Positions 3,508-42,135 of a stretch of 49,758 nt of DNA are shown in pieces. This DNA is from Candidatus Moraniibacteriota bacterium (lineage in GTDB: Bacteria; Patescibacteriota; Minisyncoccia; Moranbacterales; UBA9337). Positions within the stretch are counted from its first letter, which is position 1, and every line of letters begins with the position of its first letter. The DNA is taken from the NCBI GenBank assembly GCA_023229615.1, contig JALNYX010000003.1:1-49758 (forward strand), written 5' to 3'. Both the position numbers and the translations under genes were made by a program. Below the pieces are notes generated by a model. That model ran no database searches and was not told where the DNA came from. It saw nothing but the letters and a program-made list of their open reading frames with translations.

Positions 3508-4436
3508 ATAAAGTAATAATTTGCATACCAACCTATAATCGAACTGAGCAGATAAATAGCCTTTTTAAGGATCTATCAAAACAAGAAGATCAAAAATTTT
3601 CAGTTGTCATCTTGAATGACGGCGCGAATGCAGACACCAAAAAAATTCTACAAAATAAAAATCCTGCCTTCAAATTCTACCTTTTCGAGTCGTCAAGACC
3701 AAGTGGACTCCCTTGCGCAAGGAACAAAATACTTGATTTTATTAAAAGAAATAAAATCGACAACAATGGAACATTTGTAGCTTTTCTTGATGATGACCTG
3801 ATTATTGATAAAAATTTTATTTCACAAATAAAAAAATATTCCGAAAAATTTGATGGGTTTTGTTTTAGAATTATTCAAAGGGGATCTGCTACTACTTTCG
3901 ATTTTACTAAAAATGAAGCATTGAAAAAAATATTCTCTCCTTTAATCGGAACCATTTCTCCGTTTTTTGGATTTTTCTTCGGGGGCTACTACATAAAAAC
4001 GAATAAGATAGTAAAAATAGACCATTTGAACGGAGGATGTTTAATTTATAATTTTTCAAAAAATAAAAACGAACGGTTTGATTTAAGTTTAAACGAGGGA
4101 AACTTTGTCGCTGAAGACACTTGTTTTTCATATGGACTCAAACTTAAAGGAAATGACCTCAGATTTATTGGAAACTACAGCTATATACATAATCCGCCCG
4201 ATACCGGAGGTTGCAGGATAGAAGATAAAAAAGAAAGCTTTTATTGGTATTGGAAACACAAGTTATATATTTTCAAAAAATATCATGGCTTCCCTATTCT
4301 ACTACTAGCTCTATTTTTTTCTTTCCTGGAAAGCATTATACTGTCTATAATATTTAAAACAAATCTCATTGAAAAATACATTAAAGCTACAAAAACATAT
4401 GCCAAAAATTTCAGTCATAATGGCTGCTTGGAATGA
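3504..4436 (+). CDS. GT2 glycosyltransferase with C-terminal membrane segment
   Basis: ICIPTYNRTEQ...VVILNDGANADT...FLDDDL. C-terminal ILLLALFFSFLESIILSIIF helix. Confidence 0.8.
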   Translation: MNKVIICIPTYNRTEQINSLFKDLSKQEDQKFSVVILNDGANADTKKILQNKNPAFKFYLFESSRPSGLPCARNKILDFIKRNKIDNNGTFVAFLDDDLIIDKNFISQIKKYSEKFDGFCFRIIQRGSATTFDFTKNEALKKIFSPLIGTISPFFGFFFGGYYIKTNKIVKIDHLNGGCLIYNFSKNKNERFDLSLNEGNFVAEDTCFSYGLKLKGNDLRFIGNYSYIHNPPDTGGCRIEDKKESFYWYWKHKLYIFKKYHGFPILLLALFFSFLESIILSIIFKTNLIEKYIKATKTYAKNFSHNGCLE

Positions 4437-5193
4437 ACAAAAAATCTTTCTGAAAAAATCCATCGAAAGCATTTTAAATCAAACATTTACTGATCTTGAG
4501 TTTATTATAATAGACAATAACAGCCCAGAGGAAAACTCTGCCCTATTGGATAGTTACGCAAAAAAAGATAATCGCATTATTATCATAAGAAACAAAACCA
4601 ATATAGGACTGACAAAATCACTAAATATAGCAATAAAAAAATCCCAGGGAGAATTTATCGCAAGAATGGATGGTGATGACATATCGCTTCCAGATAGACT
4701 CTCCGAACAACTATCATTTCTCAAAAAAAATCCAACCATTGATATCATTGGAGCTAATTGCAATTTTATAAACAAAAACGATGAAATAATTAAGAAAAAA
4801 ACGATCAAGCGACCATCTAATATAAAAACTAAACTATTTAAGGGAAATTTTTTTACCCACAGCACATTTTTTGGCAAAAGAAAAGCTTTCGAGGAATTGT
4901 ATAATGAAAACTTCAAAAGAGCCCAGGATTATGAATTCCTCCTTAGGTTGGCCGGAAAAGGGTACGAGATAGATTATCTAGAAGACATTTTGTTAAATTA
5001 CCGCATAAATAAAGATGGAGTATCATTTGTTAATTCAAAAGAACAGGAGCTATTCTCCCTAAAAGCAAGAATTATTGCTATACTTAATTATAATTATAAT
5101 CCACTCTTATTTCCTTATATACTAAAAGGAGCATTAAGCTTTTTACTTCCATGTAAATTAAAACATCTTATTAATTTTAAGGCACTGCTATGA
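4399..5193 (+). CDS. GT2 glycosyltransferase
   Basis: MPKISVIMAAWNE...IIIDNNSPEEN...RMDGDDISLPDRL. The ORF track starts at 4369, but Met 4399 or 4420 gives a normal overlap with the upstream gene. Confidence 0.8.
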   Translation: MPKISVIMAAWNEQKIFLKKSIESILNQTFTDLEFIIIDNNSPEENSALLDSYAKKDNRIIIIRNKTNIGLTKSLNIAIKKSQGEFIARMDGDDISLPDRLSEQLSFLKKNPTIDIIGANCNFINKNDEIIKKKTIKRPSNIKTKLFKGNFFTHSTFFGKRKAFEELYNENFKRAQDYEFLLRLAGKGYEIDYLEDILLNYRINKDGVSFVNSKEQELFSLKARIIAILNYNYNPLLFPYILKGALSFLLPCKLKHLINFKALL

Positions 5194-27516: not shown

Positions 27517-27926
27517 TTTTTCGACTTTCGATTTTCAATTTTAAACTCTATTATCTGCTTGACTACTCCGATAACTAAAAAGAAATATACCCAAACTGCC
27601 ACCTGTTCCGCCCAAGCCTCGCCGACCGGAAGAATGTTTCGATTAGCCAATGCCAGCAATATAGGAATAATCACCAATCCAACCAAAGCCGCTCCGATAG
27701 AAATTCGCGAATCCAAATTCCAAAAAACCAGCACGAAAAAAAACAGCCAGAAAAAAATTCCTTCCAAAGTAAAATTGGCAAAATAAAAAAGACCAAGAGC
27801 AATAATGAAAAAAAACGCTCCGCCCACTTTGTCCCGCCGGGTAGAATTTTTCACCGACAAAAAAAGTTTGCGAAAGAAATTCCCCGCATCTTCCGGCATA
27901 AAAATATAATCTTTCAATTTGAACAT
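27513..27926 (-). CDS. Small membrane protein (3-4 TM)
   Basis: 137 aa, hydrophobic. Coupled to the 549-aa gene. Confidence 0.55.
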   Translation of the reverse strand: MFKLKDYIFMPEDAGNFFRKLFLSVKNSTRRDKVGGAFFFIIALGLFYFANFTLEGIFFWLFFFVLVFWNLDSRISIGAALVGLVIIPILLALANRNILPVGEAWAEQVAVWVYFFLVIGVVKQIIEFKIENRKSKK

Positions 27927-27939
27927 AAATTTATTTATA

Positions 27940-27967
27940 ATTATAACTTACACAACCAACCTTACAA
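27940..27967 (-). promoter_or_regulatory. Sigma70-like promoter for 27926->25867
   Basis: Minus strand reads TTGTAA-N16-TATAAT. The -10 ends 13 nt before the ATG, implying a very short leader. Confidence 0.45.
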
Positions 27968-27997
27968 CGCACGCCTCTTTATTATTGGATTATTAAA

Positions 27998-28033
27998 TGT
28001 GTCATTTAAATACGGCCGACGTAAGATGACACA
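27998..28033 (+). repeat. 36-bp composite palindrome, copy 1 (A.C type)
   Basis: TGTGTCATTTAAATACGGCCGACGTAAGATGACACA. It abuts the stop codon (28034-28036) of the PaaX-like gene. Confidence 0.9.
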
Positions 28034-28594
28034 TTAAATCAATTTGGAGAAATGCTTTTTCAAGACCGCTTCATTATCAATCTTTGTTGCCGTAATCACT
28101 CGGACATATCGTTCAGCACCATAAAGCGCTGTCAATTCCAAAATGGATTTTTCGCAAGGGTACGGCGACACAAACACACTATGTTGCAATTTGCGAAATT
28201 TGAGATTATGCAAATGTTCGCGCAATATATCTCGAAAAAGCCGATCTTTTTCAGGAACATCAAAAAGCACCACTCGCCACTTGCTATCCCAACGTTTCGG
28301 TTTTTTAAACATTATAGATCCACCGAGAAAATCCAACTTCCTGGCTTGTATTTTTCCCCTTGCAGTAAGAACCAACTCAAAAGATCCATCAGGAAGCTCA
28401 TTTTCTTTGATTAGTTTTTCTCTGGAAAGGGTGCGAATTGAACGGTTAAAATTTCGCTGATCAATATTTTTCCACTCACGTCGCACTTGACGCAATGTTT
28501 TGAAGTATTGCCTGGGAGATGAAGCACAACCAAGCGCCACTCCGCCCATAAGCGTAAGAAGGATTTTTTGCTGTACTGATCCGAATTTATACAT
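28034..28594 (-). CDS. PaaX-like small regulator (winged-helix N-terminus plus Cas2/VapD-like ferredoxin-fold domain)
   Basis: WRVVLFDVPEKDRLFRDILREHLHNLKFRKLQHSVFVSP matches the PaaX middle-domain pattern (W..V.FD.PE..R..R..LR..L...F..LQ.SV). N-terminal helix-rich segment. Confidence 0.55.
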   Translation of the reverse strand: MYKFGSVQQKILLTLMGGVALGCASSPRQYFKTLRQVRREWKNIDQRNFNRSIRTLSREKLIKENELPDGSFELVLTARGKIQARKLDFLGGSIMFKKPKRWDSKWRVVLFDVPEKDRLFRDILREHLHNLKFRKLQHSVFVSPYPCEKSILELTALYGAERYVRVITATKIDNEAVLKKHFSKLI

Positions 28595-28602
28595 ATTAAC
28601 AA

Positions 28603-28713
28603 TGTATCATAATTCCACGACCGACGGAAGATGACACAAAAAACAGGGATTACATACTATACTATTGGATTAAAAAATGTGTCATTTAGATACGGCCGAC
28701 GGTAGATGACACA
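28603..28713 (+). repeat. Two 36-bp palindromes: copy 2 (28603-28638, hybrid B.C type) and copy 3 (28678-28713, A.C type), separated by a 39-nt linker
   Basis: TGTATCATAATTCCACGACCGACGGAAGATGACACA and TGTGTCATTTAGATACGGCCGACGGTAGATGACACA. The linker is homologous to 32503-32541. Confidence 0.9.
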
Positions 28714-28714
28714 A

Positions 28715-28750
28715 ATAGAAGATTCTGTGAAGACTTCTATTTTAATTTTA
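28715..28750 (+). terminator. Hairpin plus T-tract (terminator-like), copy 1
   Basis: atagaag-N12-cttctat followed by tttaatttta. A near-identical copy lies at 32715-32750. Confidence 0.4.
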
Positions 28751-28795
28751 TCGCATCCTCCACTGCCCTTGCTAATTTCCTTGCCTTCCTTCTTT

Positions 28796-29011
28796 TCACA
28801 AAATTTTACCCTGTTTAATTTTTCTTTTATTTAACATGGCATAACCCAAATACCCAAGACAGCCAAACAATGTTGTTCCACTTATTAGCAAGCCTAAATA
28901 GAACCATCTTTGGGGGAAGAATTCGATGGTCATTTCTTCAATGTCATAACTACCGTCATCATTCAAAATACAGCCCGTACTTTCAACTCTATAACTTTCT
29001 ACTTTATACAC
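28796..29011 (-). pseudogene. Displaced paralogous copy of the C-terminal membrane-anchor segment of the 1044-aa protein
   Basis: Encodes ...NDDGSYDIEEMTIEFFPQRWFYLGLLISGTTLFGCLGYLGY..., compared with LNADGSYDIEMTIEFFPQRWFYLGLLISGTTLAGCLGYLGY at 32816-33010. A 29-nt identical core lies at 28896-28924 = 32940-32968. Confidence 0.7.
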
Positions 29012-29014
29012 TTT

Positions 29015-30046
29015 TCAACTTTTTCTTTTATTTTTTCTTCCTTCCAAATATTTTTTCACTTCCCGATCAAAATCAGAAATATAATTTTTATCTTGCTCAA
29101 TCCTAAATTTTTCATACTCTCCCAACGCAAGCGCTTTTGCAACATCATGACTAATTTTCCCGGCGTTCATCAAAATTTCATATTCACTGAATTTGAGAAA
29201 TGCATTAAGTTTCTGAACCCAATCCTTCATAAACATGGCTCGACCACGTGCCGCTTGCATTTCAGCATAATCCAAATACATATTACCGATGCGGTTTAAA
29301 TGCATCAATTCTTTTTTATCCAAATAATTTTTAGCGATGATTGTATCACTCGGCATGATTTTTCCATTCGGCGATCTCTGCCATGAAGTTAATCCCATTT
29401 TTTCTTTTTCACTATTAGCCCGATCTGAAATGATTTCTGCTGCAGTTTTGCCAGTGATAGCAAAATGAAGCTTATTCTGTACGGTAGCAAAAAATTCTTT
29501 ACTCTCACGCGCTTTTGGAGAATAATCAATAGCGGTTACATAAATATCAGTGATTTTTTGATAAATTCTGCGCTCGCTGGTGCGAATATCCCTAATTTCC
29601 TCATAAAGATCATCAAAATATCTGGCGCTAAAACGAGACCCATATTTCATTCGGTTAGAATCCAACGCATAACCTTTGTGAATATAATTTTTTAAAACTC
29701 CGGTTGCCCATTGGCGAAATTCCGTACCTCGCTCGGAATTTACGCGATAGCCGACAGCGATAATCACTTCAAGGCTATAAAAAGCAAGTTTTCTGGAAAT
29801 TTCTCGTTTTCCTTCTTTTTGAACTGCCGAGAATTCCTCGGTAGTTGAATTTTTATCAAGCTCATTTTCTTTGTAGATATTTTTCAAATGAAGTGATATG
29901 TTATCACTTGTGCAATCAAAAAGCTCGGCCATTTTCTTTTGCGTAAGCCAAATATTTTCTTCTGCGTAAAGCACCTCAATATTCACCGAACCTTCGGATG
30001 ATTGATAAAATGCGATTTGATTGTCAGGTATTTTTTTTATTGCCAT
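29015..30046 (-). CDS. rhuM: RhuM family protein (Fic/DOC-related virulence-associated family)
   Basis: ENIWLTQKKMAELF...YSLEVIIAVGYRVNSERGTEFRQWATGVLKNYIHKGYA are characteristic RhuM N-terminal and central motifs. 343 aa. Confidence 0.85.
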   Translation of the reverse strand: MAIKKIPDNQIAFYQSSEGSVNIEVLYAEENIWLTQKKMAELFDCTSDNISLHLKNIYKENELDKNSTTEEFSAVQKEGKREISRKLAFYSLEVIIAVGYRVNSERGTEFRQWATGVLKNYIHKGYALDSNRMKYGSRFSARYFDDLYEEIRDIRTSERRIYQKITDIYVTAIDYSPKARESKEFFATVQNKLHFAITGKTAAEIISDRANSEKEKMGLTSWQRSPNGKIMPSDTIIAKNYLDKKELMHLNRIGNMYLDYAEMQAARGRAMFMKDWVQKLNAFLKFSEYEILMNAGKISHDVAKALALGEYEKFRIEQDKNYISDFDREVKKYLEGRKNKRKS

Positions 30047-30200
30047 ATATTTAAAAATGTTTACAACTATGCCTTAATTATATACAAACAATACATGAAT
30101 ATCAATTTGTTTTAATTACTTCTTTATTACACTAAATCCATGTCAGAATAGTTACCTACTAACATAAGGATTACCGCTCTCTAACACACTCCCCTTTAAA

Positions 30201-30307
30201 TTTTTTGTTTTCAATTTTGATTACACTGATATTATACCACTGGATGTTTTTGCGTCAAATATTTCGTGTTTTATTCGGTGGAGTCAGATTATTGTTGGAT
30301 TAAAAGA
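30201..30307 (-). repeat. 107-bp promoter module, copy 1 (96% identical to 31955-32061)
   Basis: 4 mismatches in 107 nt by hand alignment. Ends in the TTGTTGGATTAAAA linker that precedes palindrome copy 4. Confidence 0.85.
30231..30258 (-). promoter_or_regulatory. Near-consensus promoter driving rhuM
   Basis: Minus strand reads TTGACG-N16-TATAAT with extended -10 TGGTATAAT. Confidence 0.6.
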
Positions 30308-30343
30308 TGTGTCATTTAGATACGGTCGACGGGAGATGACACA
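30308..30343 (+). repeat. 36-bp composite palindrome, copy 4 (A.C type)
   Basis: TGTGTCATTTAGATACGGTCGACGGGAGATGACACA, located between the divergent rhuM and zeta-toxin promoters. Confidence 0.9.
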
Positions 30344-30382
30344 TTTTCCGAGGAAGTGTTAATGGGAGGGGGTTAATACAAA

Positions 30383-30411
30383 TTGTCATCTTAATAAAAA
30401 AATGCTAAAAT
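30383..30411 (+). promoter_or_regulatory. Promoter of the zeta-toxin gene; predicts a leaderless mRNA
   Basis: TTGTCA-N17-TAAAAT with TGc extended -10. The -10 ends 6 nt before the ATG at 30418. Confidence 0.55.
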
Positions 30412-30417
30412 GCAAGC

Positions 30418-31128
30418 ATGAAACAAGCTGAAAACACCAAAATAGCTGAGGATGCTAAAGCTTTCATCAAAAAGAAAAAACGCGACCTCATAGATAAATT
30501 TGCCGACCTTGAAAAATTTCCTCCATCAGAAAAGCCATTTTCGTTTTTTATGGCTGGTTCTCCTGGCGCGGGAAAAACTGAATTCTCAAAAAGGCTCATA
30601 GAATCAATGATGCCTACGCCCATCGTAAGAATAGACGCCGACGAGATAAAAGAATTCATTCCTCAATATACAGGCAAAAACTCTGACATCGTACAGGGAG
30701 CGGCTTCAATTGCGGTGGATAATTTAAATTACTACGCCCTAAAACACAACCAAAATTTAATCATGGATGGCACGTTTGCACATTACGGGGTGGCACGCAA
30801 AAATATAATGAATTGTCTGAATAAAAAAAGGCAGATTAGCGTATTTTATATATACCAAGATCCTGTCGTCGCTTGGGATTTCACCCGGAAGCGCGAGAAG
30901 CTTGAGGGTCGCTATGTTCCAAAAGAAGCCTTTATCGAAGCATTTTTTAAGGCGAAAGAAAACGTACAGTTGATCAAGGAGGAGTTTGGCGAAAAAATAG
31001 AGCTCAACCTGATCATAAAAAATGACAAGAATGAAGACGAAGAAATCAAATCTAATATTAGCTCGAATATTGACGATTTTGCAATAATCGCATATAATAA
31101 GGAATCTCTAAATACAATCCTATGCTGA
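30418..31128 (+). CDS. Zeta-toxin family P-loop kinase
   Basis: Walker A FFMAGSPGAGKTEF followed by VRIDADE. 236 aa, typical zeta/PezT size and layout. Confidence 0.8.
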   Translation: MKQAENTKIAEDAKAFIKKKKRDLIDKFADLEKFPPSEKPFSFFMAGSPGAGKTEFSKRLIESMMPTPIVRIDADEIKEFIPQYTGKNSDIVQGAASIAVDNLNYYALKHNQNLIMDGTFAHYGVARKNIMNCLNKKRQISVFYIYQDPVVAWDFTRKREKLEGRYVPKEAFIEAFFKAKENVQLIKEEFGEKIELNLIIKNDKNEDEEIKSNISSNIDDFAIIAYNKESLNTILC

Positions 31129-31319
31129 AAAAAATAATTTCAAAATTTTCTCATAATAAAAAATCTCCAAAAAAAGAGGTCAATTTTTTCGATTTGTCCC
31201 AAGTTGAAAAAGAGCAGCTCATAAAAAAAGCTGCCAGACTTTCGTCCCAAGATCAAAAAGACCTTTTGAAAGAATACGATCGCAAATTCGGCGATCTGCA
31301 AACCAACTCTTGCAAATAA
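31122..31319 (+). CDS. Small Lys-rich protein overlapping the toxin stop (ATGCTGA); possible cognate partner
   Basis: 65 aa. 7-nt overlap with the toxin gene. A strong terminator follows. Confidence 0.45.
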   Translation: MLKKIISKFSHNKKSPKKEVNFFDLSQVEKEQLIKKAARLSSQDQKDLLKEYDRKFGDLQTNSCK

Positions 31320-31350
31320 ACAAGCGCGCGCCGCATTATCTCCCTTTCAA

Positions 31351-31380
31351 AAAATCCTGCCATAGTGGCAGGATTTTTAT
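31351..31380 (+). terminator. Rho-independent terminator of the toxin operon
   Basis: aaaatcctgcca-tag-tggcaggatttttatt. Confidence 0.75.
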
Positions 31381-31411
31381 TGTACCATTCTGAATTTGCG
31401 CTTATCGATAA

Positions 31412-31513
31412 TGTATCATAATTCCACGGCCGACGGTAGATGACACAAAAGATAGGGATTGTGTTTGTTGGGTTGAATGTGTCATTTAGATACGGTCGAC
31501 GTAAGATGACACA
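31412..31513 (+). repeat. Two 36-bp palindromes: copy 5 (31412-31447, hybrid B.C type) and copy 6 (31478-31513, A.C type)
   Basis: TGTATCATAATTCCACGGCCGACGGTAGATGACACA and TGTGTCATTTAGATACGGTCGACGTAAGATGACACA, with the 30-nt linker aaagatagggattgtgtttgttgggttgaa. Confidence 0.9.
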
Positions 31514-31547
31514 AATAGAGATGATGGGTAGTTTGATTGTGGGGTTG

Positions 31548-31664
31548 CTATGTTGTTTCTATCTTCCGCTTTTCCTCGCCCTGCCGAAGCCTTTGGCGAA
31601 GGCGGGTGCGGCGGTTAATGAGGTCGTATCCGAGATAACTTAGACAGCCAAATAATGTTGTGTC
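31548..31664 (-). pseudogene. Third remnant of the membrane-anchor/tail coding segment
   Basis: Hand translation gives DTTLFGCLSYLGYDLINRRTRLRQRLRQGEEKRKIETT*, compared with GTTLAGCLGYLGYDFVKRRKRRAGERERERVGDME* (intact gene) and GTTLFGCLGYLGYAMLNKRKIKQGKIL* (28796 copy). Confidence 0.6.
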
Positions 31665-31954
31665 TCAGTTAAAATTGCATCTAGATTATAGTGTTTTATA
31701 TCACGAGCAACTTCCCTTGAAGATTCCTTTTGAACTATCCGGAAATTCCGGATAGTTGAATTTTCATCCAATTCTTGCTCTAAATAAATATTAACCAGAT
31801 GCTCATTGACTGTGCGAACATTAACATTAAATAGTTCGGCGATTAATTTTTGCGTCAACCAAACATTCTCATCTTCAATTCTAACGTGGATTTTTTGTTT
31901 ATCGCCAAAAGATTGATAAATGGTAATTTGCTGTTTTTTTGAGTGCTTTTTCAT
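31640..31954 (-). pseudogene. Truncated RhuM-like gene (N-terminal approx. 95 aa only), running out of frame into the anchor remnant
   Basis: ENVWLTQKLIAELF...KHYNLDAIL aligns with the first third of the 343-aa RhuM protein, then ends TETQHYLAV*. Confidence 0.65.
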
Positions 31955-32061
31955 TTTTTTGTATTCAATTTTGATTACACTGATATTATACCACTGGATG
32001 TTTTAGCGTCAAATATTTCGTGTTTTATTCGGTGGAGTCAGATTATTGTTGAATTAAAAAA
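31955..32061 (-). repeat. 107-bp promoter module, copy 2
   Basis: 96% identical to 30201-30307. Here it directly abuts the start codon at 31954. Confidence 0.85.
31985..32012 (-). promoter_or_regulatory. Near-consensus promoter (duplicate of 30231-30258)
   Basis: Minus strand reads TTGACG-N16-TATAAT with TGGTATAAT. Confidence 0.55.
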
Positions 32062-32713
32062 TGTGTCATTTAGATACGGCCGACGTAGGATGACACAAAT
32101 TATAGATGGGCCGGGATTGAGTGTTGATAAAATACAGGGATTGTGTTTGTTAAATTGAGAATGTGTCATTTAGATACGGCCGACGGTAGATGACACAAAT
32201 GTTGAATGTGTCATTTAGATACGGCCGACGTAGGATGACACAAATTATAGGGATTGTGTTTGTTGGATTAAAATAGGCTTGTTGTGTCATTTAGATACGG
32301 CCGACGTAGGATGACACAAATTATAGATGGGCCAGGATTGAGTGTTGATAAAATACAGGGATTGTGTTTGTTGGATTAAAATAGGCTTGTTGTGTCATTT
32401 AGATACGGTCGACGTAGGATGACACAAAAGATAGAGATTGTGTTTGTTGGATTAAAATAGGCTTGTTGTGTCATTTAGATACGGCCGACGTAGGATGACA
32501 CAAAAAACAGGGATTACATACTATACTGTTGGATTACAAAATGTGTCATTTAGATACGGCCGACGGGAGATGACACAAAAGATAGAGATAGTGTTTGTTG
32601 AATTGAGAATGTGTCATTTAGATACGGCCGTGGAATTATGACACAAAAAATAGGGATTGTGTTTGTTGAATTGAGAATGTGTCATTTAGATACGGTCGAC
32701 GGGAGATGACACA
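32062..32713 (+). repeat. Array of nine 36-bp composite palindromes (copies 7-15) with recurrent linkers
   Basis: Copies at 32062, 32162, 32207, 32283, 32391, 32467, 32542, 32610 (hybrid A.B' type) and 32678. Linkers are 64, 9, 40, 72, 40, 39, 32 and 32 nt and share ...GGGATTGTGTTTGTTGGATTAAAA.... Confidence 0.9.
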
Positions 32714-32714
32714 A

Positions 32715-32750
32715 ATAGAAGTTTTTGTGAAGACTTCTATTTTAATTTTA
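32715..32750 (+). terminator. Hairpin plus T-tract (terminator-like), copy 2
   Basis: atagaagt-N10-acttctat followed by tttaatttta. It lies 65 nt beyond the stop of the 1044-aa gene, so it may act bidirectionally. Confidence 0.4.
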
Positions 32751-32815
32751 TCACCAACCCTTTCGAGAAGCAAAAAAACTTTTTTTTATTTCTACTTCTG
32801 TTTCTGTTTCTGTTC

Positions 32816-35800
32816 CTATTCCATATCACCCACCCGCTCTCGCTCCCGTTCTCCCGCCCTGCGCTTTCTTCGTTTTACAAAGTCATAACCCAAATAGCCA
32901 AGACAACCTGCGAGAGTTGTGCCGGAAATTAACAATCCCAAATAGAACCATCTTTGGGGGAAGAATTCTATGGTCATTTCGATGTCATAACTTCCATCAG
33001 CATTCAGCTTGCAGGCACTATTCAATTCATCACTTTCCGACTTTTGACTTTTGACTTTTGACTCACACAATTGTTCCGGTTCAACAAACCAGCCATTCAA
33101 AAATCCATTCAATTCAAAATGCTTGTCATCCGAAATCCGATCAGGCTTTACCCAAGGAATCCACGACGCGATAAATCGCGAGTATAAAGTCGAAAGTCGA
33201 AAGTTAAAAGCATTTGAGTCAACGATGCCAATCTTATTATTAGTAAGTTGTGCCTGCCACTGCGGATGAAAACTCTCACTCATCGCCAAATAAAACGGCG
33301 TAGTCGCCCCCTTGATATGAACTAATTTTTTGGTAGGATTCAATAAATCAAATGTTACTTCCTTAGGATCGACAAAATTAGTCTGAGGATCACTCACGAG
33401 ATAGTAATGATTTTGAATGTCAGGAAGCTCAATTAAATGAAAATTATCGTAAAGTGTCCTAATATTGGTCTTTTCATCTTGACTGAAAGAATAAACTGCA
33501 AGTGATGCTTCTTCCACACCATTTGGAATTGAGATGATTTTAGAAAAATGATGCCACTCATTATTTGTTATTGGAAGTCGTTTACTGATGTAGTTATTCT
33601 TACCAAAACCCAAGTAAAATGCTGCGATTTTTCCATCATCACTCTTATAATCAAAAGATAATAAATATGAAGCGTTACTTTTTAAATAAATTTTTCCCGT
33701 AGAAGTACACGCATTATGACGAATCGAGGATAATTCTAAAGAATTTAGACCATCCGTCCTATCGCTTGATAATTTCATTGAAATTAAGGGATTGTCATCG
33801 TAAGCATTGCAATCACTCACTGCTTTCTGCCACATTCCATCTTCAAAAGAAAAATTTAAAATATCATTTTTATAACTAAAATTATCATGTTTGTATGTAA
33901 TTCCCAATGAACTACCTGATAAAACATCAATAGCACTGTAATAATCCCTAATAATATCATCATCTTTTTCTAAAATTTTAATTTGAGATTGCAGTATCTC
34001 TATTTCTGCTGTTATATTATTAGAATATAAATAAGTTTTTCCATTTGTTGGAATATCCCTAAGAACAATTTCTTTATTTTGTATTTCTTCTGGTGTTAGA
34101 AATTCAAATAATCTAGTTATTTTTTGTGTTGGAAATTCAAATTTTTTTTCGGAAACAATAAAATCTTCTTTATCGCTAATGGTATCTAAAACAAATTCAA
34201 ATTTTTTATTAATATTTAAATATGAATCATATTGTGTCAAATCTAAAAATGACCTAAAATAATTTTTATAATTACTATTCTCATACACAACCAATTCCGT
34301 GGTTCCAATATCAATTCGCTTTAAATATGATAATTTGTCAAGATTATCAATATACCATTGACGGATATTAGGATTTTCCCTACCTCCATAATCTATAAAA
34401 AAATTATCATCATTACTATAATCGCTCAACGGCACTACGATATACTTAATAGACCCTGCATCCAAAAGATGATCTGAAAAATATTTATTAAATGGATCAA
34501 TGATTTTTAAAAATCTATCTCTCGGATGAATATCACCATCAACAAAATTTTTCCACATTTTGTCAGCTATATTAACACCAACTAATCGTGGGTGTTTGTC
34601 TGTATATGTGGCCCATTTACTTGTATGCGGAACCCAATATGTTCGAAAAAAATATGACTGAGAGTTTATAAATTCATTGTAGATTTTATAATCATCTGGT
34701 ATTTGCCTTGGAACAAACAATGTTTCAACACCTCCAGAAAAAAATGACCTTGTGTTTCCTAAAAATATAAATACCACTATAATAGTTAATATAATTCCGA
34801 CATTCTTTATAACTTTATTTTTATTCAATGTTACATAATAAACAAAACTACTAATTAAAACTGAGTAGCCAATGGCTATAAGAAAATAAAACTTACTTGC
34901 CTCTCTAAAAACTTGAAATCCTGGAATATGGGTAAATAGCCATTTATACAGCTCTGGAAAAGGGCTTACAGCTTGTTTAGATAATAAAATCCCAAAAATT
35001 GATATGATGGAGAAAAAAAGAACAAGACGATTTTTTTTCCCCAAAATTAAACCACAAAAAGATATTACAGGAACCAAGAAAAAATAAATTGGGATATGTT
35101 GTGTTTCAAAAACTGCAATTTTACCTCCTGTCCACCAAGGATGAAATAACGCAATAGACCTTGTAAGATTATAAAAACTACTCCCCCATAATTCTCTGCT
35201 AAGTATGGCATTTTCTTGACCACCACCGCTCATAATCATGCCCAGTATCCAGTAAATACTCAAAAAAAGAAATACCGAAAAAGAAACTATTGAATAAATA
35301 ATTATTGAAAAATCAAAATTTTCAAATAATTTAAAAATTGTATAGATAGCTAGTACCACTGAGACAATTAAGGCAACCCTAGGTTCATAAGAACTCAAAC
35401 CAAATAAGGTTAAGGCAGATACAATACAAAATAAAATTTTCTTTTCGTTTAACGCTTTTATAAAAAATAATATTGCAAATGGTGCTAATGCAAATGCAGT
35501 TGCTAATGTTATGTGTCCTGTTTGAAGTGTGAGTATGTAGCTATTAAAAGAATATACACCAGCACCAATGCAAGCAGCTAATACATTTTTAAATATATAT
35601 CTGTTTAAAAAATATGCCGAGAGTGGTGTAAATATAACGATTGGGAAAAAATATTGTATTCTTTCGATTATCTCCCATCTTAAAAAATTATTTAATGCTA
35701 AAACACCAGATAATGCATACGTTGGAGCTTGCCCGACATCAGAAAGATGCCTACCAAAATTTTGATCAGATAACCATAGCGAAAAATAGTTTATCCTTAG

Positions 35801-35950
35801 TGAATACAAAGTCTCATTGAAAAAATAAGTCCAATCACCATGAGTTATAATGGCATCACTAAATAGCCATCTATGATAAATTAACATAGTGACCATGCAT
35901 AAAATTATAATTGGCCATTTCTCTTTTGCTTTTTTAAAAAGATAATTCAT
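32816..35950 (-). CDS. 1044-aa membrane protein: polytopic N-terminal approx. 400 aa (GT-C-like), large extracytoplasmic domain, C-terminal TM anchor with Arg/Glu tail
   Basis: More than 12 N-terminal hydrophobic segments. C-terminal FFPQRWFYLGLLISGTTLAGCLGYLGY helix. First gene after the four downstream GT genes of the minus-strand operon. Confidence 0.8.
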   Translation of the reverse strand: MNYLFKKAKEKWPIIILCMVTMLIYHRWLFSDAIITHGDWTYFFNETLYSLRINYFSLWLSDQNFGRHLSDVGQAPTYALSGVLALNNFLRWEIIERIQYFFPIVIFTPLSAYFLNRYIFKNVLAACIGAGVYSFNSYILTLQTGHITLATAFALAPFAILFFIKALNEKKILFCIVSALTLFGLSSYEPRVALIVSVVLAIYTIFKLFENFDFSIIIYSIVSFSVFLFLSIYWILGMIMSGGGQENAILSRELWGSSFYNLTRSIALFHPWWTGGKIAVFETQHIPIYFFLVPVISFCGLILGKKNRLVLFFSIISIFGILLSKQAVSPFPELYKWLFTHIPGFQVFREASKFYFLIAIGYSVLISSFVYYVTLNKNKVIKNVGIILTIIVVFIFLGNTRSFFSGGVETLFVPRQIPDDYKIYNEFINSQSYFFRTYWVPHTSKWATYTDKHPRLVGVNIADKMWKNFVDGDIHPRDRFLKIIDPFNKYFSDHLLDAGSIKYIVVPLSDYSNDDNFFIDYGGRENPNIRQWYIDNLDKLSYLKRIDIGTTELVVYENSNYKNYFRSFLDLTQYDSYLNINKKFEFVLDTISDKEDFIVSEKKFEFPTQKITRLFEFLTPEEIQNKEIVLRDIPTNGKTYLYSNNITAEIEILQSQIKILEKDDDIIRDYYSAIDVLSGSSLGITYKHDNFSYKNDILNFSFEDGMWQKAVSDCNAYDDNPLISMKLSSDRTDGLNSLELSSIRHNACTSTGKIYLKSNASYLLSFDYKSDDGKIAAFYLGFGKNNYISKRLPITNNEWHHFSKIISIPNGVEEASLAVYSFSQDEKTNIRTLYDNFHLIELPDIQNHYYLVSDPQTNFVDPKEVTFDLLNPTKKLVHIKGATTPFYLAMSESFHPQWQAQLTNNKIGIVDSNAFNFRLSTLYSRFIASWIPWVKPDRISDDKHFELNGFLNGWFVEPEQLCESKVKSQKSESDELNSACKLNADGSYDIEMTIEFFPQRWFYLGLLISGTTLAGCLGYLGYDFVKRRKRRAGERERERVGDME
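33039..33063. repeat. 7-bp tandem repeat (GACTTTT)x3.6 inside the CDS; inverted partner (AAAGTCG)x2.9 at 33186-33205
   Basis: gacttttgacttttgacttttgact, and aaagtcgaaagtcgaaagtt about 125 nt away in opposite orientation. Confidence 0.85.
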
Positions 35951-40290: not shown

Positions 40291-40774
40291 GAACCACTGA
40301 TTCTCACGTGATTTTATTGATTGCACGTGATTAGAGTTTCGTTATTTTACATATCTCTTAACTTCTAAACTTCTAGCACCAAAATTTATCAGCAAACCCA
40401 GCTTAACCTTATAGGCTTCGATGTAGTTTATTAGCTGAGCGATGTTCACATCTTCTAGTTTTGTTATCGCCTTCAACTCAACCATAACATCTCTGTCAAC
40501 CAAAAAATCAACTCTTCTAGTGCCGACCAATTGTTCTTCGTAGAAAATATCCATTTCTTTTTCACGTTCAAACTTCAATCCCTCTTTTTCAAATTCAATC
40601 GCCAATGATCTTTGATAGATAACCTCCTGAAAACCATTGCCCAGGGTACGATGCACCTTCTGCGCGCATTTGATAATCTTTCCCGTCACATCTGACTTAT
40701 AATATTTTTCATCTATATAATTATCCATAAAAATCATGTGTACTTATGTGTAAATCAGTGAGAATCAGTGGTTC
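40291..40774 (-). mobile_element. 484-bp cassette: GxxExxY gene bounded by 17-bp perfect inverted repeats
   Basis: GAACCACTGATTCTCAC at 40291-40307 and its exact reverse complement at 40758-40774. The match extends to 23 of 24 positions with one gap. Confidence 0.45.
40342..40737 (-). CDS. GxxExxY family protein (PD-(D/E)XK nuclease-like fold)
   Basis: LGNGFQEVIYQRSL (GxxExxY), RVDFLVDRDVMVELKA (D...ExK) and LINFG motifs. 131 aa. Confidence 0.8.
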   Translation of the reverse strand: MIFMDNYIDEKYYKSDVTGKIIKCAQKVHRTLGNGFQEVIYQRSLAIEFEKEGLKFEREKEMDIFYEEQLVGTRRVDFLVDRDVMVELKAITKLEDVNIAQLINYIEAYKVKLGLLINFGARSLEVKRYVK

Positions 40775-40779
40775 TGACT

Positions 40780-42135
40780 TTATCTGTGGTTCACGATCTC
40801 CCAATGCCCGCCTTTGTCTGGACCGATTCTTTTGATGAGTCCTTTCTCTTTCAACCTTGCAATATCTCTCTTGATGGTTTTTTCATTTACCTGCAACTCT
40901 TTCGCAATTTCAGAAATAGCAATATCATTTTTGCTTTCTACTAAACGCATAATCAGATCAGCCCTTTCAGGGACATTTTCAGGGACATTTTCAGGGACAT
41001 TTTCAGGGACATTTTCAGGGACATTTTTCCTGCGTTTCCAAAAAACAATCACAAAAGCCCCTGATCTTTCAGAAAAATCAGGCATCTCATTGCCATTCTT
41101 TTCACACTCTTCAATTATCCGTTGGAAGCCTGCTCCCCAATTTTCTACCAATTCAATTTGATGAAAAATTTCCACCAACTTTTTGTTTCTCGGGATAGAT
41201 CTGTTTTCAGTGAGAATACTTTTTATATTAATCTCTTTAGGTAAAAGCCCTGGACTCCAAATTTCAAGAGAATTATCAAAAATTCTAATTTGAATATTCC
41301 CCGGATCATTATAGTCCCGATGAATAAGCGCATTAATGACTGCTTCGCGCAGAGCTAAGAGTGGATAATCCCAAACTTCATCTCTTTTTGGCTTTCCAGT
41401 CATGACAAATTCCGTATTGATGTGTCGCTTGATGAAATCCATCGTTTCGTCAACGGCGCGAATAATGTTTCCGTCAAATTCTTTTTCGTCCAAAAATTTG
41501 GCAACACTTTCCCCTTTAAACCTTGCCGCCTTCACAATGACATTGTGCATCTCAGTATTGTTTTTTACAAAACAAAGATAGCCAGCATTGGTAATTTTAT
41601 TTTTTACTATCAACCCAATCTTTTTCAAAAAATCAATTGAGGAAACGACCTTAAGCTTGTAATATTCTTTGTTTACCCTCTCAATAAGTCTATCATCAAA
41701 TTCGACTTTTTTAGAATCTTTTTCCAAATACATTTTGTCGAAATCCGATAAGGCATATCTTTTTATTAACTCCCTCACTTCCGTTTGAGACATTTTTTGG
41801 TTGGTTTTTCCGACTCTCATATATGCCCTATCAAAAGCAAACACGGGCTTATTGTCAGATTCCGAGACTTCAATCTCCACGATTTCACCCAAGCCGAAAG
41901 TTTTAACATTTATGGATGGGTACAGAATTGGATCAGTATGATTTTTTATTTTATTGGCGAAATCTTCAATAGTGCTTTTTCCGAGCTGAATTTCACTAGC
42001 CACGCCATCATCTTTCATACCGATAACAACCTTTCCGCCTTTTCTATTGGCAAAGGCGCAAAGAGCAACGATCGCCTCTTTCCATTCAGAAAATGAAGTT
42101 TTTAATTCAATTTTTTCAGATTCTTTTAATTTCAT
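40780..42135 (-). CDS. AlbA_2 (Schlafen-like) plus HATPase_c_4 plus C-terminal wHTH protein (family often annotated as a RecG-like putative DNA-binding/ATP-binding regulator)
   Basis: ESEKIELKTSFSEWKEAIVALCAFANRKGGKVVIGMKDDG (AlbA_2). LREAVINALIHRDY. C-terminal ISEIAKELQVNEKTIKRDIARLKEKGLIKR. Confidence 0.8.
   Translation of the reverse strand: MKLKESEKIELKTSFSEWKEAIVALCAFANRKGGKVVIGMKDDGVASEIQLGKSTIEDFANKIKNHTDPILYPSINVKTFGLGEIVEIEVSESDNKPVFAFDRAYMRVGKTNQKMSQTEVRELIKRYALSDFDKMYLEKDSKKVEFDDRLIERVNKEYYKLKVVSSIDFLKKIGLIVKNKITNAGYLCFVKNNTEMHNVIVKAARFKGESVAKFLDEKEFDGNIIRAVDETMDFIKRHINTEFVMTGKPKRDEVWDYPLLALREAVINALIHRDYNDPGNIQIRIFDNSLEIWSPGLLPKEINIKSILTENRSIPRNKKLVEIFHQIELVENWGAGFQRIIEECEKNGNEMPDFSERSGAFVIVFWKRRKNVPENVPENVPENVPENVPERADLIMRLVESKNDIAISEIAKELQVNEKTIKRDIARLKEKGLIKRIGPDKGGHWEIVNHR
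40968..41027. repeat. Perfect 12-bp tandem repeat x5 (cagggacatttt) encoding (ENVP)5 in the linker before the wHTH
   Basis: Five identical units counted base by base. In-frame (12 nt). Confidence 0.95.

What the first reader, a model, noticed from the sequence alone, without database searches (positions are those of the whole stretch)
32062..32713. Nine-copy array with higher-order repeat structure at the 3' flank of the 1044-aa gene
Within 652 bp the palindromes are separated by linkers of 64, 9, 40, 72, 40, 39, 32 and 32 nt. The linkers are themselves a small set of related sequences: aaagatagRgattgtgtttgttggattaaaataggcttgt; aattatagatgggccRggattgagtgttgataaaatacaggg...; and aaaaacagggattacatactatactRttggatta. 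Blocks recur with point differences (32098-32161 vs 32319-32382; 32243-32282 vs 32427-32466; 32578-32609 vs 32646-32677). This indicates repeated unequal recombination or tandem insertion of empty modules. The array ends at a hairpin with a T-tract (32715-32750), so it could also be made as a + strand multi-hairpin transcript antisense to nothing coding.
Basis: seen in the sequence. Interest (0 to 1): 0.6.

Follow-up and report, generated by a model that had tools for sequence, protein, structure and literature searches.

The report
Tandem array of a regulator's palindromes
The nine repeats are real and are extra, gene-less copies of the 36-base palindrome that flanks a small DNA-binding protein gene 3.5 kb away, most likely that protein's binding site, piled up in a rearranging island of accessory genes in an ultra-small groundwater bacterium.

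Summary
Nine copies of one 36-bp palindrome lie at 32062-32713, with linkers of 64, 9, 40, 72, 40, 39, 32 and 32 nt drawn from about four related sequences.

The array is not a stand-alone object. The 911-kb genome (Patescibacteria; close homologues of the regulator are labelled Moranbacteria) has 15 copies of this palindrome. All lie at 27998-32713 and all point the same way. The first two bracket a 186-aa winged-helix plus Cas2-like ("mini-PaaX", Pfam PaaX_M) gene at 28034-28594.

In 26 of 30 orthologue loci that gene is flanked the same way. The centre ACGGCCGT is conserved (CG..CG invariant), the arms co-vary, and distant paralogues carry other palindromes. The palindrome is therefore most likely the protein's cognate DNA site, and at its own gene it overlaps the -10 box.

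The array most likely arose by unequal recombination among site-plus-linker units. A strain 97.7% identical nearby has a different gene and about four units in another order.

The array is not CRISPR (a true array with Cas1 lies on another contig). It is not an integron and not a REP system. The copy number rests on a short-read assembly. This scan has noted the gene-plus-palindromes module before on other genomes. Three literature searches found no description of it.

The parts
32062..32713 (+). Array of nine 36-bp palindromes (P1-P9) with eight linkers of 64, 9, 40, 72, 40, 39, 32 and 32 nt. P8 (32610-32645) has a different right arm (CCGTGGAATTATGACACA). P5 and P9 have the centre CGGTCG.
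28034..28594 (-). Mini-PaaX gene: 186 aa, an N-terminal winged helix plus a Cas2-like PaaX_M domain, with no PaaX_C domain.
   Evidence: Pfam PaaX_M E 9.1e-22. AF2 model pLDDT 77.7. Best Foldseek matches are PaaX 8a39, Rv0674 3kfw and 3l09, then Cas2 chains. 331 homologues, named hypothetical / PaaX / 'Cas2' by their sources.
28603..28638 (+). Palindrome upstream of the mini-PaaX gene, ending 8 nt before its ATG. Its gene-proximal arm carries TGATACATT (extended -10-like). It is one of the three best matches to the family model in the window.
27998..28033 (+). Palindrome abutting the stop codon of the mini-PaaX gene, 31 nt upstream of the -35-like hexamer of the next operon (137-aa and 549-aa genes).
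28639..28713 (+). 39-nt linker (37/39 identical to array linker 6) plus a further palindrome at 28678-28713.
28715..28750 (+). Copy of the hairpin plus T-tract that closes the array at 32715-32750.
   Evidence: 28631-28752 vs 32638-32752, 84%
28796..29011 (-). Remnant of the 3' end of a 1044-aa-type gene (28821-28999 is 76% identical to 32865-33037).
29015..30046 (-). RhuM-family accessory gene. Its promoter-like site TTGACG-N16-TATAAT lies at 30258-30231.
30308..30343 (+). Palindrome between the divergent rhuM and zeta-toxin promoters. It overlaps neither.
30397..31320 (+). Zeta-toxin-family gene plus a 65-aa ORF. The pair is conserved as one unit in four other genomes, without these palindromes.
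31375..31513 (+). Remnant of the 5' end of a second mini-PaaX gene (31375-31411), its upstream-type palindrome (31412-31447), a 30-nt linker and another palindrome (31478-31513).
   Evidence: 28560-28719 vs 31370-31519, 77%
31640..32061 (-). Truncated rhuM (104 aa) plus a copy of the rhuM promoter block (31949-32097 is 93% identical to 30195-30343), which leads into P1.
32715..32750 (+). AT-rich hairpin with a T-rich tail between the array and the stop codon of the 1044-aa gene.
32816..35950 (-). 1044-aa membrane protein of the glycosylation cluster, converging on the array. Not found in the three same-genus genomes.

Best explanation
The 36-bp palindromes are the cognate double-stranded DNA sites of the small winged-helix/Cas2-like protein ('mini-PaaX') encoded at 28034-28594.

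Inferred binding mode: a dimer reads the conserved centre ACGGCCGT and the CAT/ATG elements about one helical turn to either side of it. At its own gene the upstream site covers the -10 box of a near-leaderless promoter, which would give self-repression. A second site abuts the stop codon.

Shown here: in this strain the site, with pieces of adjoining linker and promoter sequence, has been copied 15 times within a 4.7-kb island of accessory genes. The island holds RhuM, a zeta-toxin pair and a truncated RhuM, and sits at the 3' end of the 1044-aa glycosylation-cluster gene. Nine gene-less units form the array.

Inferred origin: the array was made and is being remodelled by unequal homologous recombination or slippage between the 68-112-bp site-plus-linker units, helped by the palindromes themselves.

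Inferred function: the array is mostly a by-product, a pile of 'empty' site units. If the protein binds it, it would also act as a cluster of mostly sub-consensus binding sites, serving as a sink or roadblock between the convergent 1044-aa gene and the island's promoters.
For: 1. All 15 copies in the 911-kb genome lie at 27998-32713, in one orientation, around the only close mini-PaaX gene.

2. In 26 of 30 loci (the window plus 29 orthologues at 60-73% identity from other genomes of the order) a CGRYCG-centred site lies both within 90 nt upstream and within about 130 nt downstream of the gene. Such centres occur 304 times in 911 kb of this genome.

3. Across 44 such sites C16, G17, C20 and G21 are invariant, while 15 of 16 arm pairs show changes on both sides. 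83.5% of cells are paired against 60.4% in shuffles, and 27-52% when the partner is slid. These sites were picked for arm complementarity, which inflates the paired fraction.

4. Distant paralogues (25-45% identity) are flanked by other palindromes of about 36 bp or more with other centres. The centre is GCATATGC for the second paralogue of this genome, TTGCAATTGCAA on both sides in L071, and GCGRYCGC in L067 and L073. Flanking palindromes were detected in 8 of 16 such loci by a strict script.

5. TGnTAnnnT sits exactly 15 nt before the ATG, inside the gene-proximal arm, in 13 of 30 loci including the window.

6. Mismatches in the arms are strand-symmetric (G.T-type 34, A.C-type 34). This is as expected for duplex DNA, not for an RNA hairpin.

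7. The fold is winged helix plus Cas2-like, with PaaX as the nearest structure.

8. Among 60 relatives, 23 of the 25 with a close orthologue have model matches, against 9 of the 35 without. The model was built partly from those orthologues' own flanks, and related genomes are not independent.

9. Array dynamics: contig L064 (97.7% identical over 1413 bp) has a Bro-N gene in place of rhuM, lacks the zeta unit, and has four palindromes in another order before the contig ends. A contig from sample X2 shows the same re-ordering.
Against: Binding is not shown.

Outside its own gene the site does not overlap the promoter-like sites of rhuM, the zeta-toxin gene or the 137-aa operon. It lies 31-50 nt upstream of their -35 hexamers, so a simple repressor role for those genes is not evident.

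Most array copies score poorly against the family model (17-26 bits, against 33-35 for 28603, 31412 and 32610), so they may be weak sites.

The palindrome-gene-palindrome unit behaves as a discrete block. Between two species of one genus the 82%-identical DNA is 647 bp, running from 5 nt outside one palindrome to the end of the other, with unrelated genes on both sides. This suits a mobile unit as well as a regulator.

The Cas2-like domain keeps an invariant Asp at the end of its first strand (D112), which leaves room for an enzymatic role.

The array's exact copy number is unverified.
Confidence: 0.6

Rival explanations
1. The palindromes are recombination or mobility sites of an integron-like cassette platform, and the nine gene-less units are empty cassettes left by excision or insertion. 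Mini-PaaX, or an unlinked recombinase, would act on the conserved centre.
For: Palindromes sit at gene boundaries here and in other genomes. L051 reads site-Mrr nuclease-site-two unknowns-site-unknown-site-mini-PaaX-site. L054 reads site-unknown-site-Macro-site-Fic-site-601-aa unknown-site. The cargo is of the accessory or defence type. Gene content differs between near-identical strains. The palindrome-gene-palindrome block ends at the palindromes in pairs from different species: L051/L052 at -52..+31, L028/L037 at -41..+36, L022/L024 at -44..+40. P8 and the 28603/31412 sites are mixtures of arm types. Asp112 of the Cas2-like domain is invariant.
Against: The window holds no integrase, transposase or Cas1. 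The two PF00589 genes lie on other contigs. A swap test for attL/attR-type hybrid arms was negative: swapped arms were more complementary in 4 of 26 loci, less in 8, and equal in 14. Zeta-toxin units elsewhere lack the sites: 1 weak model match in 13 loci, and homology ends at the gene pair. The breakpoints between the window and L064 lie inside a unit, not at a palindrome. No target-site duplication is visible. The conserved part is the centre, not the ends.
Confidence: 0.2
2. The palindromes act as RNA or single-strand hairpins, comparable to REP/BIME elements. They would be terminators, or 3'-end stabilisers of the convergent 1044-aa mRNA, or a + strand multi-hairpin transcript.
For: The hairpins are stable (-14.8 kcal/mol, z -4.4 on the + strand). 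The array lies in the 3' flank of a convergent gene and is closed by a hairpin plus T-tract. It has a BIME-like mix of palindromes and a few linker types. Some family members have A-runs before and T-runs after the palindrome.
Against: No strand bias of wobble-type mismatches (34 vs 34). None of the nine is followed by a T-tract, and the terminator scan flags none. No + strand promoter-like site of 10/12 or better lies between the zeta-gene 3' end and the array. The sites are not dispersed: 15 of 15 are in one locus. The invariant centre and the both-sides-of-the-gene layout are not explained. No Y1 transposase was found in a genome that is 86% complete.
Confidence: 0.1
3. The array is largely an assembly artefact: a short-read mis-join of fewer units or of several strains.
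For: Logan contigs of the likely source run break at every repeat and none spans the array. Depth is uneven, and one contig in X1 joins 31876 to 32725. The related contig L064 ends inside its array. Two strains with different arrays exist in groundwater samples.
Against: The longest near-identical blocks (95 and 114 nt, 96-97%) are shorter than ordinary read lengths and carry distinguishing point differences. An independent contig also carries four tandem units. Tandem gene-less sites occur in other genomes, in L052 and L054-L057 and three in L063.
Confidence: 0.1

Closest known systems
PaaX, the phenylacetyl-CoA-responsive repressor of the paa operons, with its palindromic operators (E. coli W structure 8a39; PaaX-like 3l09, 3kfw). 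The ligand response and operators are recalled; the structures come.
   Same: A winged helix followed by a Cas2-like middle domain (Pfam PaaX_M 77 bits; best fold matches). A dyad-symmetric site at the regulator's own promoter.
   Different: Only 186 aa and no C-terminal PaaX_C domain. No paa genes nearby. The site is 36 bp and present on both sides of the gene, with paralogue-specific sequences. Here it is amplified to 15 copies, including a nine-unit gene-less array.
REP elements and BIMEs of enterobacteria, with their RAYT transposases (recalled)
   Same: Clusters of imperfect palindromes separated by a small set of linker motifs, in extragenic DNA at the 3' ends of genes. The protein gene is flanked by its own palindromes.
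   Different: All copies lie in one locus and one orientation. No Y1 transposase was found. The conserved element is the centre of the dyad. The associated protein has a winged-helix/Cas2-like fold.
Integron cassette arrays and attC clusters lacking an integrase (recalled)
   Same: Single-gene units of accessory cargo separated by similar palindromic sites in one orientation. Content varies between strains.
   Different: No IntI. The sites are 36 bp with a conserved centre and variable ends, the reverse of attC. The cargo does not carry the site elsewhere.
CRISPR arrays
   Same: A repeat of about 36 nt with dyad symmetry, interspersed with stretches of 32-40 nt. A Cas2-like domain is encoded nearby.
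   Different: The 'spacers' are copies of each other and range from 9 to 72 nt. The genome's real CRISPR (about 42 copies of another 36-nt repeat with unique spacers, next to Cas1) lies on contig C36.

Membership tests
PaaX-family regulator with operator | Cas2-like middle domain (Pfam PaaX_M) | tested here: met
   E 9.1e-22, 77.4 bits against a cut-off of 24. All 120 listed homologues carry PF20803.
PaaX-family regulator with operator | N-terminal winged-helix DNA-binding domain | tested here: inconclusive
   No Pfam PaaX N-domain hit. The AF2 model shows three helices plus a two-strand wing. Profile matches to HxlR/MarR-type regulators are weak (QsrR E 0.007).
PaaX-family regulator with operator | C-terminal PaaX_C domain and a link to phenylacetate genes | tested here: not met
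   The protein ends after the Cas2-like domain at 186 aa. No paa genes in the window.
PaaX-family regulator with operator | Protein binds the palindrome | not testable with these tools
   Inferred from conserved flanking, co-variation and paralogue-specific centres.
CRISPR array | Regularly spaced repeats with unique spacers | tested here: not met
   Linkers of 9-72 nt that are 91-95% identical to each other.
CRISPR array | Adjacent cas genes or leader | tested here: not met
   No Cas family hit in 37 window ORFs scanned or 12 scanned. Cas1 and another array are on C36.
Integron / attC array | IntI-type tyrosine recombinase at the array | tested here: not met
   None in the window. Two PF00589 genes lie on contigs C51 and C30.
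Integron / attC array | attC architecture (conserved R boxes at the ends, variable centre, 55 nt or more) | tested here: not met
   The sites are 36 bp, the centre is invariant and the ends vary. The definition of attC is recalled.
REP/BIME with RAYT | Many copies dispersed through extragenic DNA | tested here: not met
   15 of 15 copies lie within 4.7 kb. Two other CGRYCG-centred dyads with different arms lie elsewhere.
REP/BIME with RAYT | Y1 (IS200-like) transposase flanked by the palindromes | tested here: not met
   No PF01797 match in the genome, which is 86% complete.
Intrinsic terminators | GC-rich hairpin followed by a T-tract | tested here: not met
   None of the nine is flagged by the scan. 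Only the AT-rich hairpin at 32715-32750 has a T-rich tail.

The most novel reading that the evidence does not exclude
Mini-PaaX is not only a repressor. It is the acting protein of an integrase-free cassette system. Its Cas2-like domain, with the invariant Asp112, would nick or otherwise process the extruded palindrome at the conserved ACGGCCGT centre. Units bounded by palindromes would then be duplicated, lost and moved. On this reading the nine-unit array is the footprint of that activity, an evolutionary cousin of both REP/RAYT amplification and CRISPR repeat handling by a Cas2-fold protein.
Probability: 0.12. Interest if true: 0.85.

Novelty: new variant of a known kind. Interest (0 to 1): 0.5.

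Why it matters
Ultra-small Patescibacteria have few regulators and few known mobile elements. A small winged-helix/Cas2-fold protein that carries its own palindromes on both sides of its gene is widespread in them: 85 of 201 genomes of this order, with up to 11 copies per genome. It is mislabelled 'Cas2' or 'PaaX' in databases.

This window shows what the sites can do beyond the gene. They spread locally, they mark the joints of an island of toxin-type and defence-type genes, and they form an array that differs between near-identical strains. That makes the locus a natural test case for two questions. Are such palindromes only operators, or also hot spots or substrates for genome rearrangement? 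And does a Cas2-fold domain outside CRISPR handle repeat DNA?

On the practical side, such arrays break short-read assemblies and can be miscalled as CRISPR.

Tried and rejected
- Rfam scan of 31000-33500 at E up to 1: only three chance-level matches, none on the palindromes.
- Exact-arm search in 60 relatives: only one 2-mismatch hit, no better than the control counts.
- Viral contigs: 0 matches to the degenerate palindrome.
- The 1044-aa protein was not found in the three same-genus genomes, so a filled-versus-empty site comparison of this locus was impossible.
- attL/attR-type arm-swap test: negative.
- Strand-specific wobble test for an RNA hairpin: negative.
- Target-site duplications beside the palindromes: none seen.
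- AF2 on the single sequence gave an unusable model (pLDDT 35.7).
- Foldseek gave only weak E-values (best 1e-3), although the ranking was consistent.
- Sequencing runs: no RNA holder was listed, and only Logan contigs were available, which fragment at the repeats. Neither expression nor copy number could be read from them.
- The X1 joint 31876 to 32725 (one contig, 33 nt on the shorter side) was left unexplained.
- A homodimer prediction for mini-PaaX could not be run because the queue was full at every attempt (and later), so there is no result.
- Three literature searches (listings and abstracts only) returned nothing on palindrome-flanked PaaX-like or Cas2-like genes in Patescibacteria. 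This is not proof that none is in print.
- The second accessory islet at 40345-42135 has no short-loop inverted repeats.

Full report
**What is there**

The region 32062-32713 holds nine copies of a 36-bp imperfect palindrome, TGTGTCATTTAGATA-CGGCCG-ACGTAGGATGACACA and point variants, all in one orientation.
- The linkers are about four related sequences. Linker 6 is 37/39 identical to the linker at 28639-28677.
- Larger super-units recur at 96-97%.
- Tandem Repeats Finder sees periods of 68 and 45.
- The left arm occurs 13 times in the window, against 0.03 expected by chance.
- An AT-rich hairpin with a T-rich tail follows the array.

**The array is part of a larger set**

The window is contig C44 of a 911-kb, 63-contig genome that is 86% complete. 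Close homologues of its proteins are labelled Moranbacteria/Patescibacteria.

A search for any TGTRTCAT-N20-ATGAYACA dyad finds 15 copies in the whole genome. All lie at 27998-32713 and all have the same polarity. Six lie outside the array:
- 27998 and 28603 bracket a 186-aa gene at 28034-28594 (- strand).
- 28678 follows 28603 after a 39-nt linker.
- 30308 lies between the divergent rhuM and zeta-toxin genes.
- 31412 and 31478 lie after the zeta-toxin unit.

The sites 28603 and 31412 have another left arm (TGTATCATAATTCCA). The array copy P8 has the mirror image of that arm on its right. So three arm types are combined in different ways.

**The bracketed gene**

- Its product matches Pfam PaaX_M, the Cas2-like middle domain of PaaX (E 9.1e-22), and nothing else above cut-off.
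- Foldseek ranks E. coli PaaX (8a39), Rv0674 (3kfw) and 3l09 first, then Cas2 chains, at weak E-values from 1e-3.
- The protein lacks the C-terminal domain of PaaX.
- Invariant residues in the alignment include W102, D103, W106, D112, P114, R121, R125, Q137, S139 and P144.
- Sources call its homologues hypothetical, PaaX or 'Cas2'.

**The palindrome belongs to that gene**

Homologues occur in 85 of 201 genomes sampled from the same order, with up to 11 copies per genome. I took the 29 best loci from other genomes (60-73% identity) plus the window.

- *Flanking.* In 26 of 30 loci a CGRYCG-centred site lies both within 90 nt upstream and within about 130 nt downstream of the gene. It typically ends 8-11 nt before the ATG and starts at the stop codon. 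Such centres number 304 in the whole 911-kb genome.
- *Co-variation.* In an alignment of 44 such sites, C16, G17, C20 and G21 are invariant. The arms differ between loci (TGTATCA, CCTCAT, GGTAAT, GTAACAT, ATCGTCAT, TTTACCAC and others) but stay complementary. 15 of 16 pairs change on both sides. 83.5% of cells are paired, against 60.4% in shuffles and 27-52% in slid controls. I chose these sites for complementarity, so the paired fraction is inflated. The variety of arm pairs is not affected by that choice.
- *Paralogue-specific centres.* Paralogues at 25-45% identity are flanked by other palindromes of about 36 bp or more with other centres, including this genome's second paralogue on C29. 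Flanking palindromes were detected in 8 of 16 such loci by a strict script, and by eye in one more.
- *Co-occurrence.* A covariance model of the site finds matches in 33 of 61 genomes, counting G000. Among the 60 relatives, 23 of the 25 with a close orthologue have matches, against 9 of the 35 without. There are three caveats. The model was partly trained on those orthologues' flanks. Related genomes are not independent. I also assume that unlisted handles were in the no-match group.

**Duplex DNA site or hairpin?**

- Arm mismatches of the G.T type and of the A.C type are equal, 34 each. Nothing therefore points to an RNA hairpin on one strand.
- The gene-proximal arm of the upstream site carries TGnTAnnnT exactly 15 nt before the ATG in 13 of 30 loci, here as TGATACATT. 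The site covers the -10 box of a near-leaderless promoter.

The simplest reading is a dimeric DNA-binding protein with its operator. This is inference. Binding was not and could not be tested here.

**What lies between the sites**

The interval 27.9-32.8 kb interrupts a 49-kb glycosylation and cell-envelope cluster. It carries:
- RhuM;
- a zeta-toxin gene with a 65-aa ORF;
- a truncated RhuM;
- two remnants of the 3' end of a 1044-aa-type gene (28796-29011 and about 31530-31643);
- a remnant of a second mini-PaaX 5' end (31375-31411);
- duplicated blocks, such as the rhuM promoter with its palindrome (30195-30343 vs 31949-32097, 93%) and the hairpin with its palindrome (28631-28752 vs 32638-32752, 84%).

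Outside its own gene, the palindrome does not overlap the promoter-like sites of neighbouring genes.

Two array linkers carry TCAACA-N17-TATAAT on the - strand, ending 1-2 nt before P1 and P4. Their meaning is open.

**Dynamics**

A 2596-bp metagenome contig (L064) is 97.7% identical to 27551-28963. After that stretch it differs in three ways:
- It carries a Bro-N gene instead of rhuM.
- It has the same promoter block but no zeta unit.
- It has four palindromes in another order (a P8-like copy first; linkers 32, 40 and 39). The contig ends on the six bases that follow P9 in the window.

A contig from a second groundwater sample (X2) carries the same point differences as L064 and the same re-ordering. 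So the array and the island differ between close strains.

The copy number in the window itself is unverified. The Logan contigs break at every repeat.

**Cassette-like layout elsewhere, and its limits**

Next to mini-PaaX genes in other genomes, the sites separate single genes. These include an Mrr-type nuclease, Macro, Fic, a MarR-nucleotidyltransferase and unknowns. Gene-less tandem sites occur too, but with no more than three in a row among the loci I held.

The palindrome-gene-palindrome unit is a discrete block. Between two species of one genus, the 82%-identical DNA is 647 bp and ends at the palindromes, with unrelated genes outside. Three further pairs behave alike.

Four results argue against an integron-like mechanism:
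- There is no recombinase in the window.
- The arm-swap test is negative.
- Zeta-toxin units elsewhere have no such sites.
- The breakpoints between the window and L064 do not fall at palindromes.

**Other rivals**

- *CRISPR.* The genome has a real CRISPR array on C36: about 42 copies of an unrelated 36-nt repeat with unique spacers of about 26 nt, next to Cas1. That makes a clean contrast with this array.
- *REP/RAYT.* No Y1 transposase was found.
- *Rfam.* Rfam has nothing on the region.

**Verdict**

The repeat is most likely the cognate site of the mini-PaaX protein, amplified locally by unequal recombination in a rearranging accessory island (confidence 0.6). A role of the sites or the protein in moving DNA stays open (0.2 for the cassette reading; 0.12 for an enzymatic Cas2-fold role).

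Earlier notes of this scan describe the same gene-plus-palindromes module in at least 71 other genomes. I re-derived it independently here. My three literature searches found no description of it (listings and abstracts only).

Noticed in passing
own genome, contig C36:500-4475 (outside the window): A true CRISPR array of about 42 copies of a 36-nt repeat (ATCTACAAAAGTAGAAATCTTATATTGATATTAGAC) with unique spacers of about 26 nt, next to a Cas1 gene (3702-4475).
   Followed up: partly
window 28796-29011 and about 31530-31643 (- strand): Two remnants of the C-terminal end of a 1044-aa-type gene (...FPQRWFYLGLLISGTTL.GCLGYLGY...). Each lies just upstream (in the - strand sense) of a palindrome, as at the intact gene's end. 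Accessory genes seem to have entered repeatedly near this gene's 3' end. In L064 the Bro-N gene abuts such a remnant.
   Followed up: partly
window 31375-31411: Remnant of the first ~8 codons of a second mini-PaaX gene next to its upstream-type palindrome (31412). It is cut off by the hairpin that follows the zeta-toxin unit.
   Followed up: partly
window 30397-31320: The zeta-toxin-family gene and an overlapping 65-aa ORF are conserved together at 69-78% DNA identity in four genomes of other genera and families, but are absent from the three same-genus genomes. The small ORF may be the partner of the toxin.
   Followed up: partly
window 40345-42135 (- strand): A second small accessory islet inside the glycosylation cluster: a PDDEXK_3 nuclease and a Schlafen AlbA_2 / HATPase_c_4 / HTH protein. 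No palindromes flank it.
   Followed up: partly
own genome C29:7467-8241, C1:652, C2:546: The second mini-PaaX paralogue (33% identical) has its own GTCAA...GCATATGC...TTGAC palindrome on both sides, plus two solo copies near contig ends. That gives four copies in all, against 15 for the first type.
   Followed up: partly
L063:5945-6075 (metagenome contig): Three different ACGGCCGT-centred palindromes stand in tandem with gaps of 5 and 24 nt and no gene between them.
   Followed up: no
L051:5002-5648 vs L052:3653-4297: Two species of one genus share exactly the palindrome-gene-palindrome block (647 bp, 82%), with unrelated neighbouring genes on both sides. The module changes place as a unit.
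   Followed up: partly
window 32099-32127 and 32320-32348 (- strand): The two long linkers carry a promoter-like TCAACA-N17-TATAAT that ends 1-2 nt before palindromes P1 and P4, so a start site would fall inside the palindrome.
   Followed up: no
window 31876 / 32725: One contig of run X1 joins these two places, skipping 848 nt that include the whole array. It could be a variant lacking the array or a chance join of A/T-rich ends.
   Followed up: no
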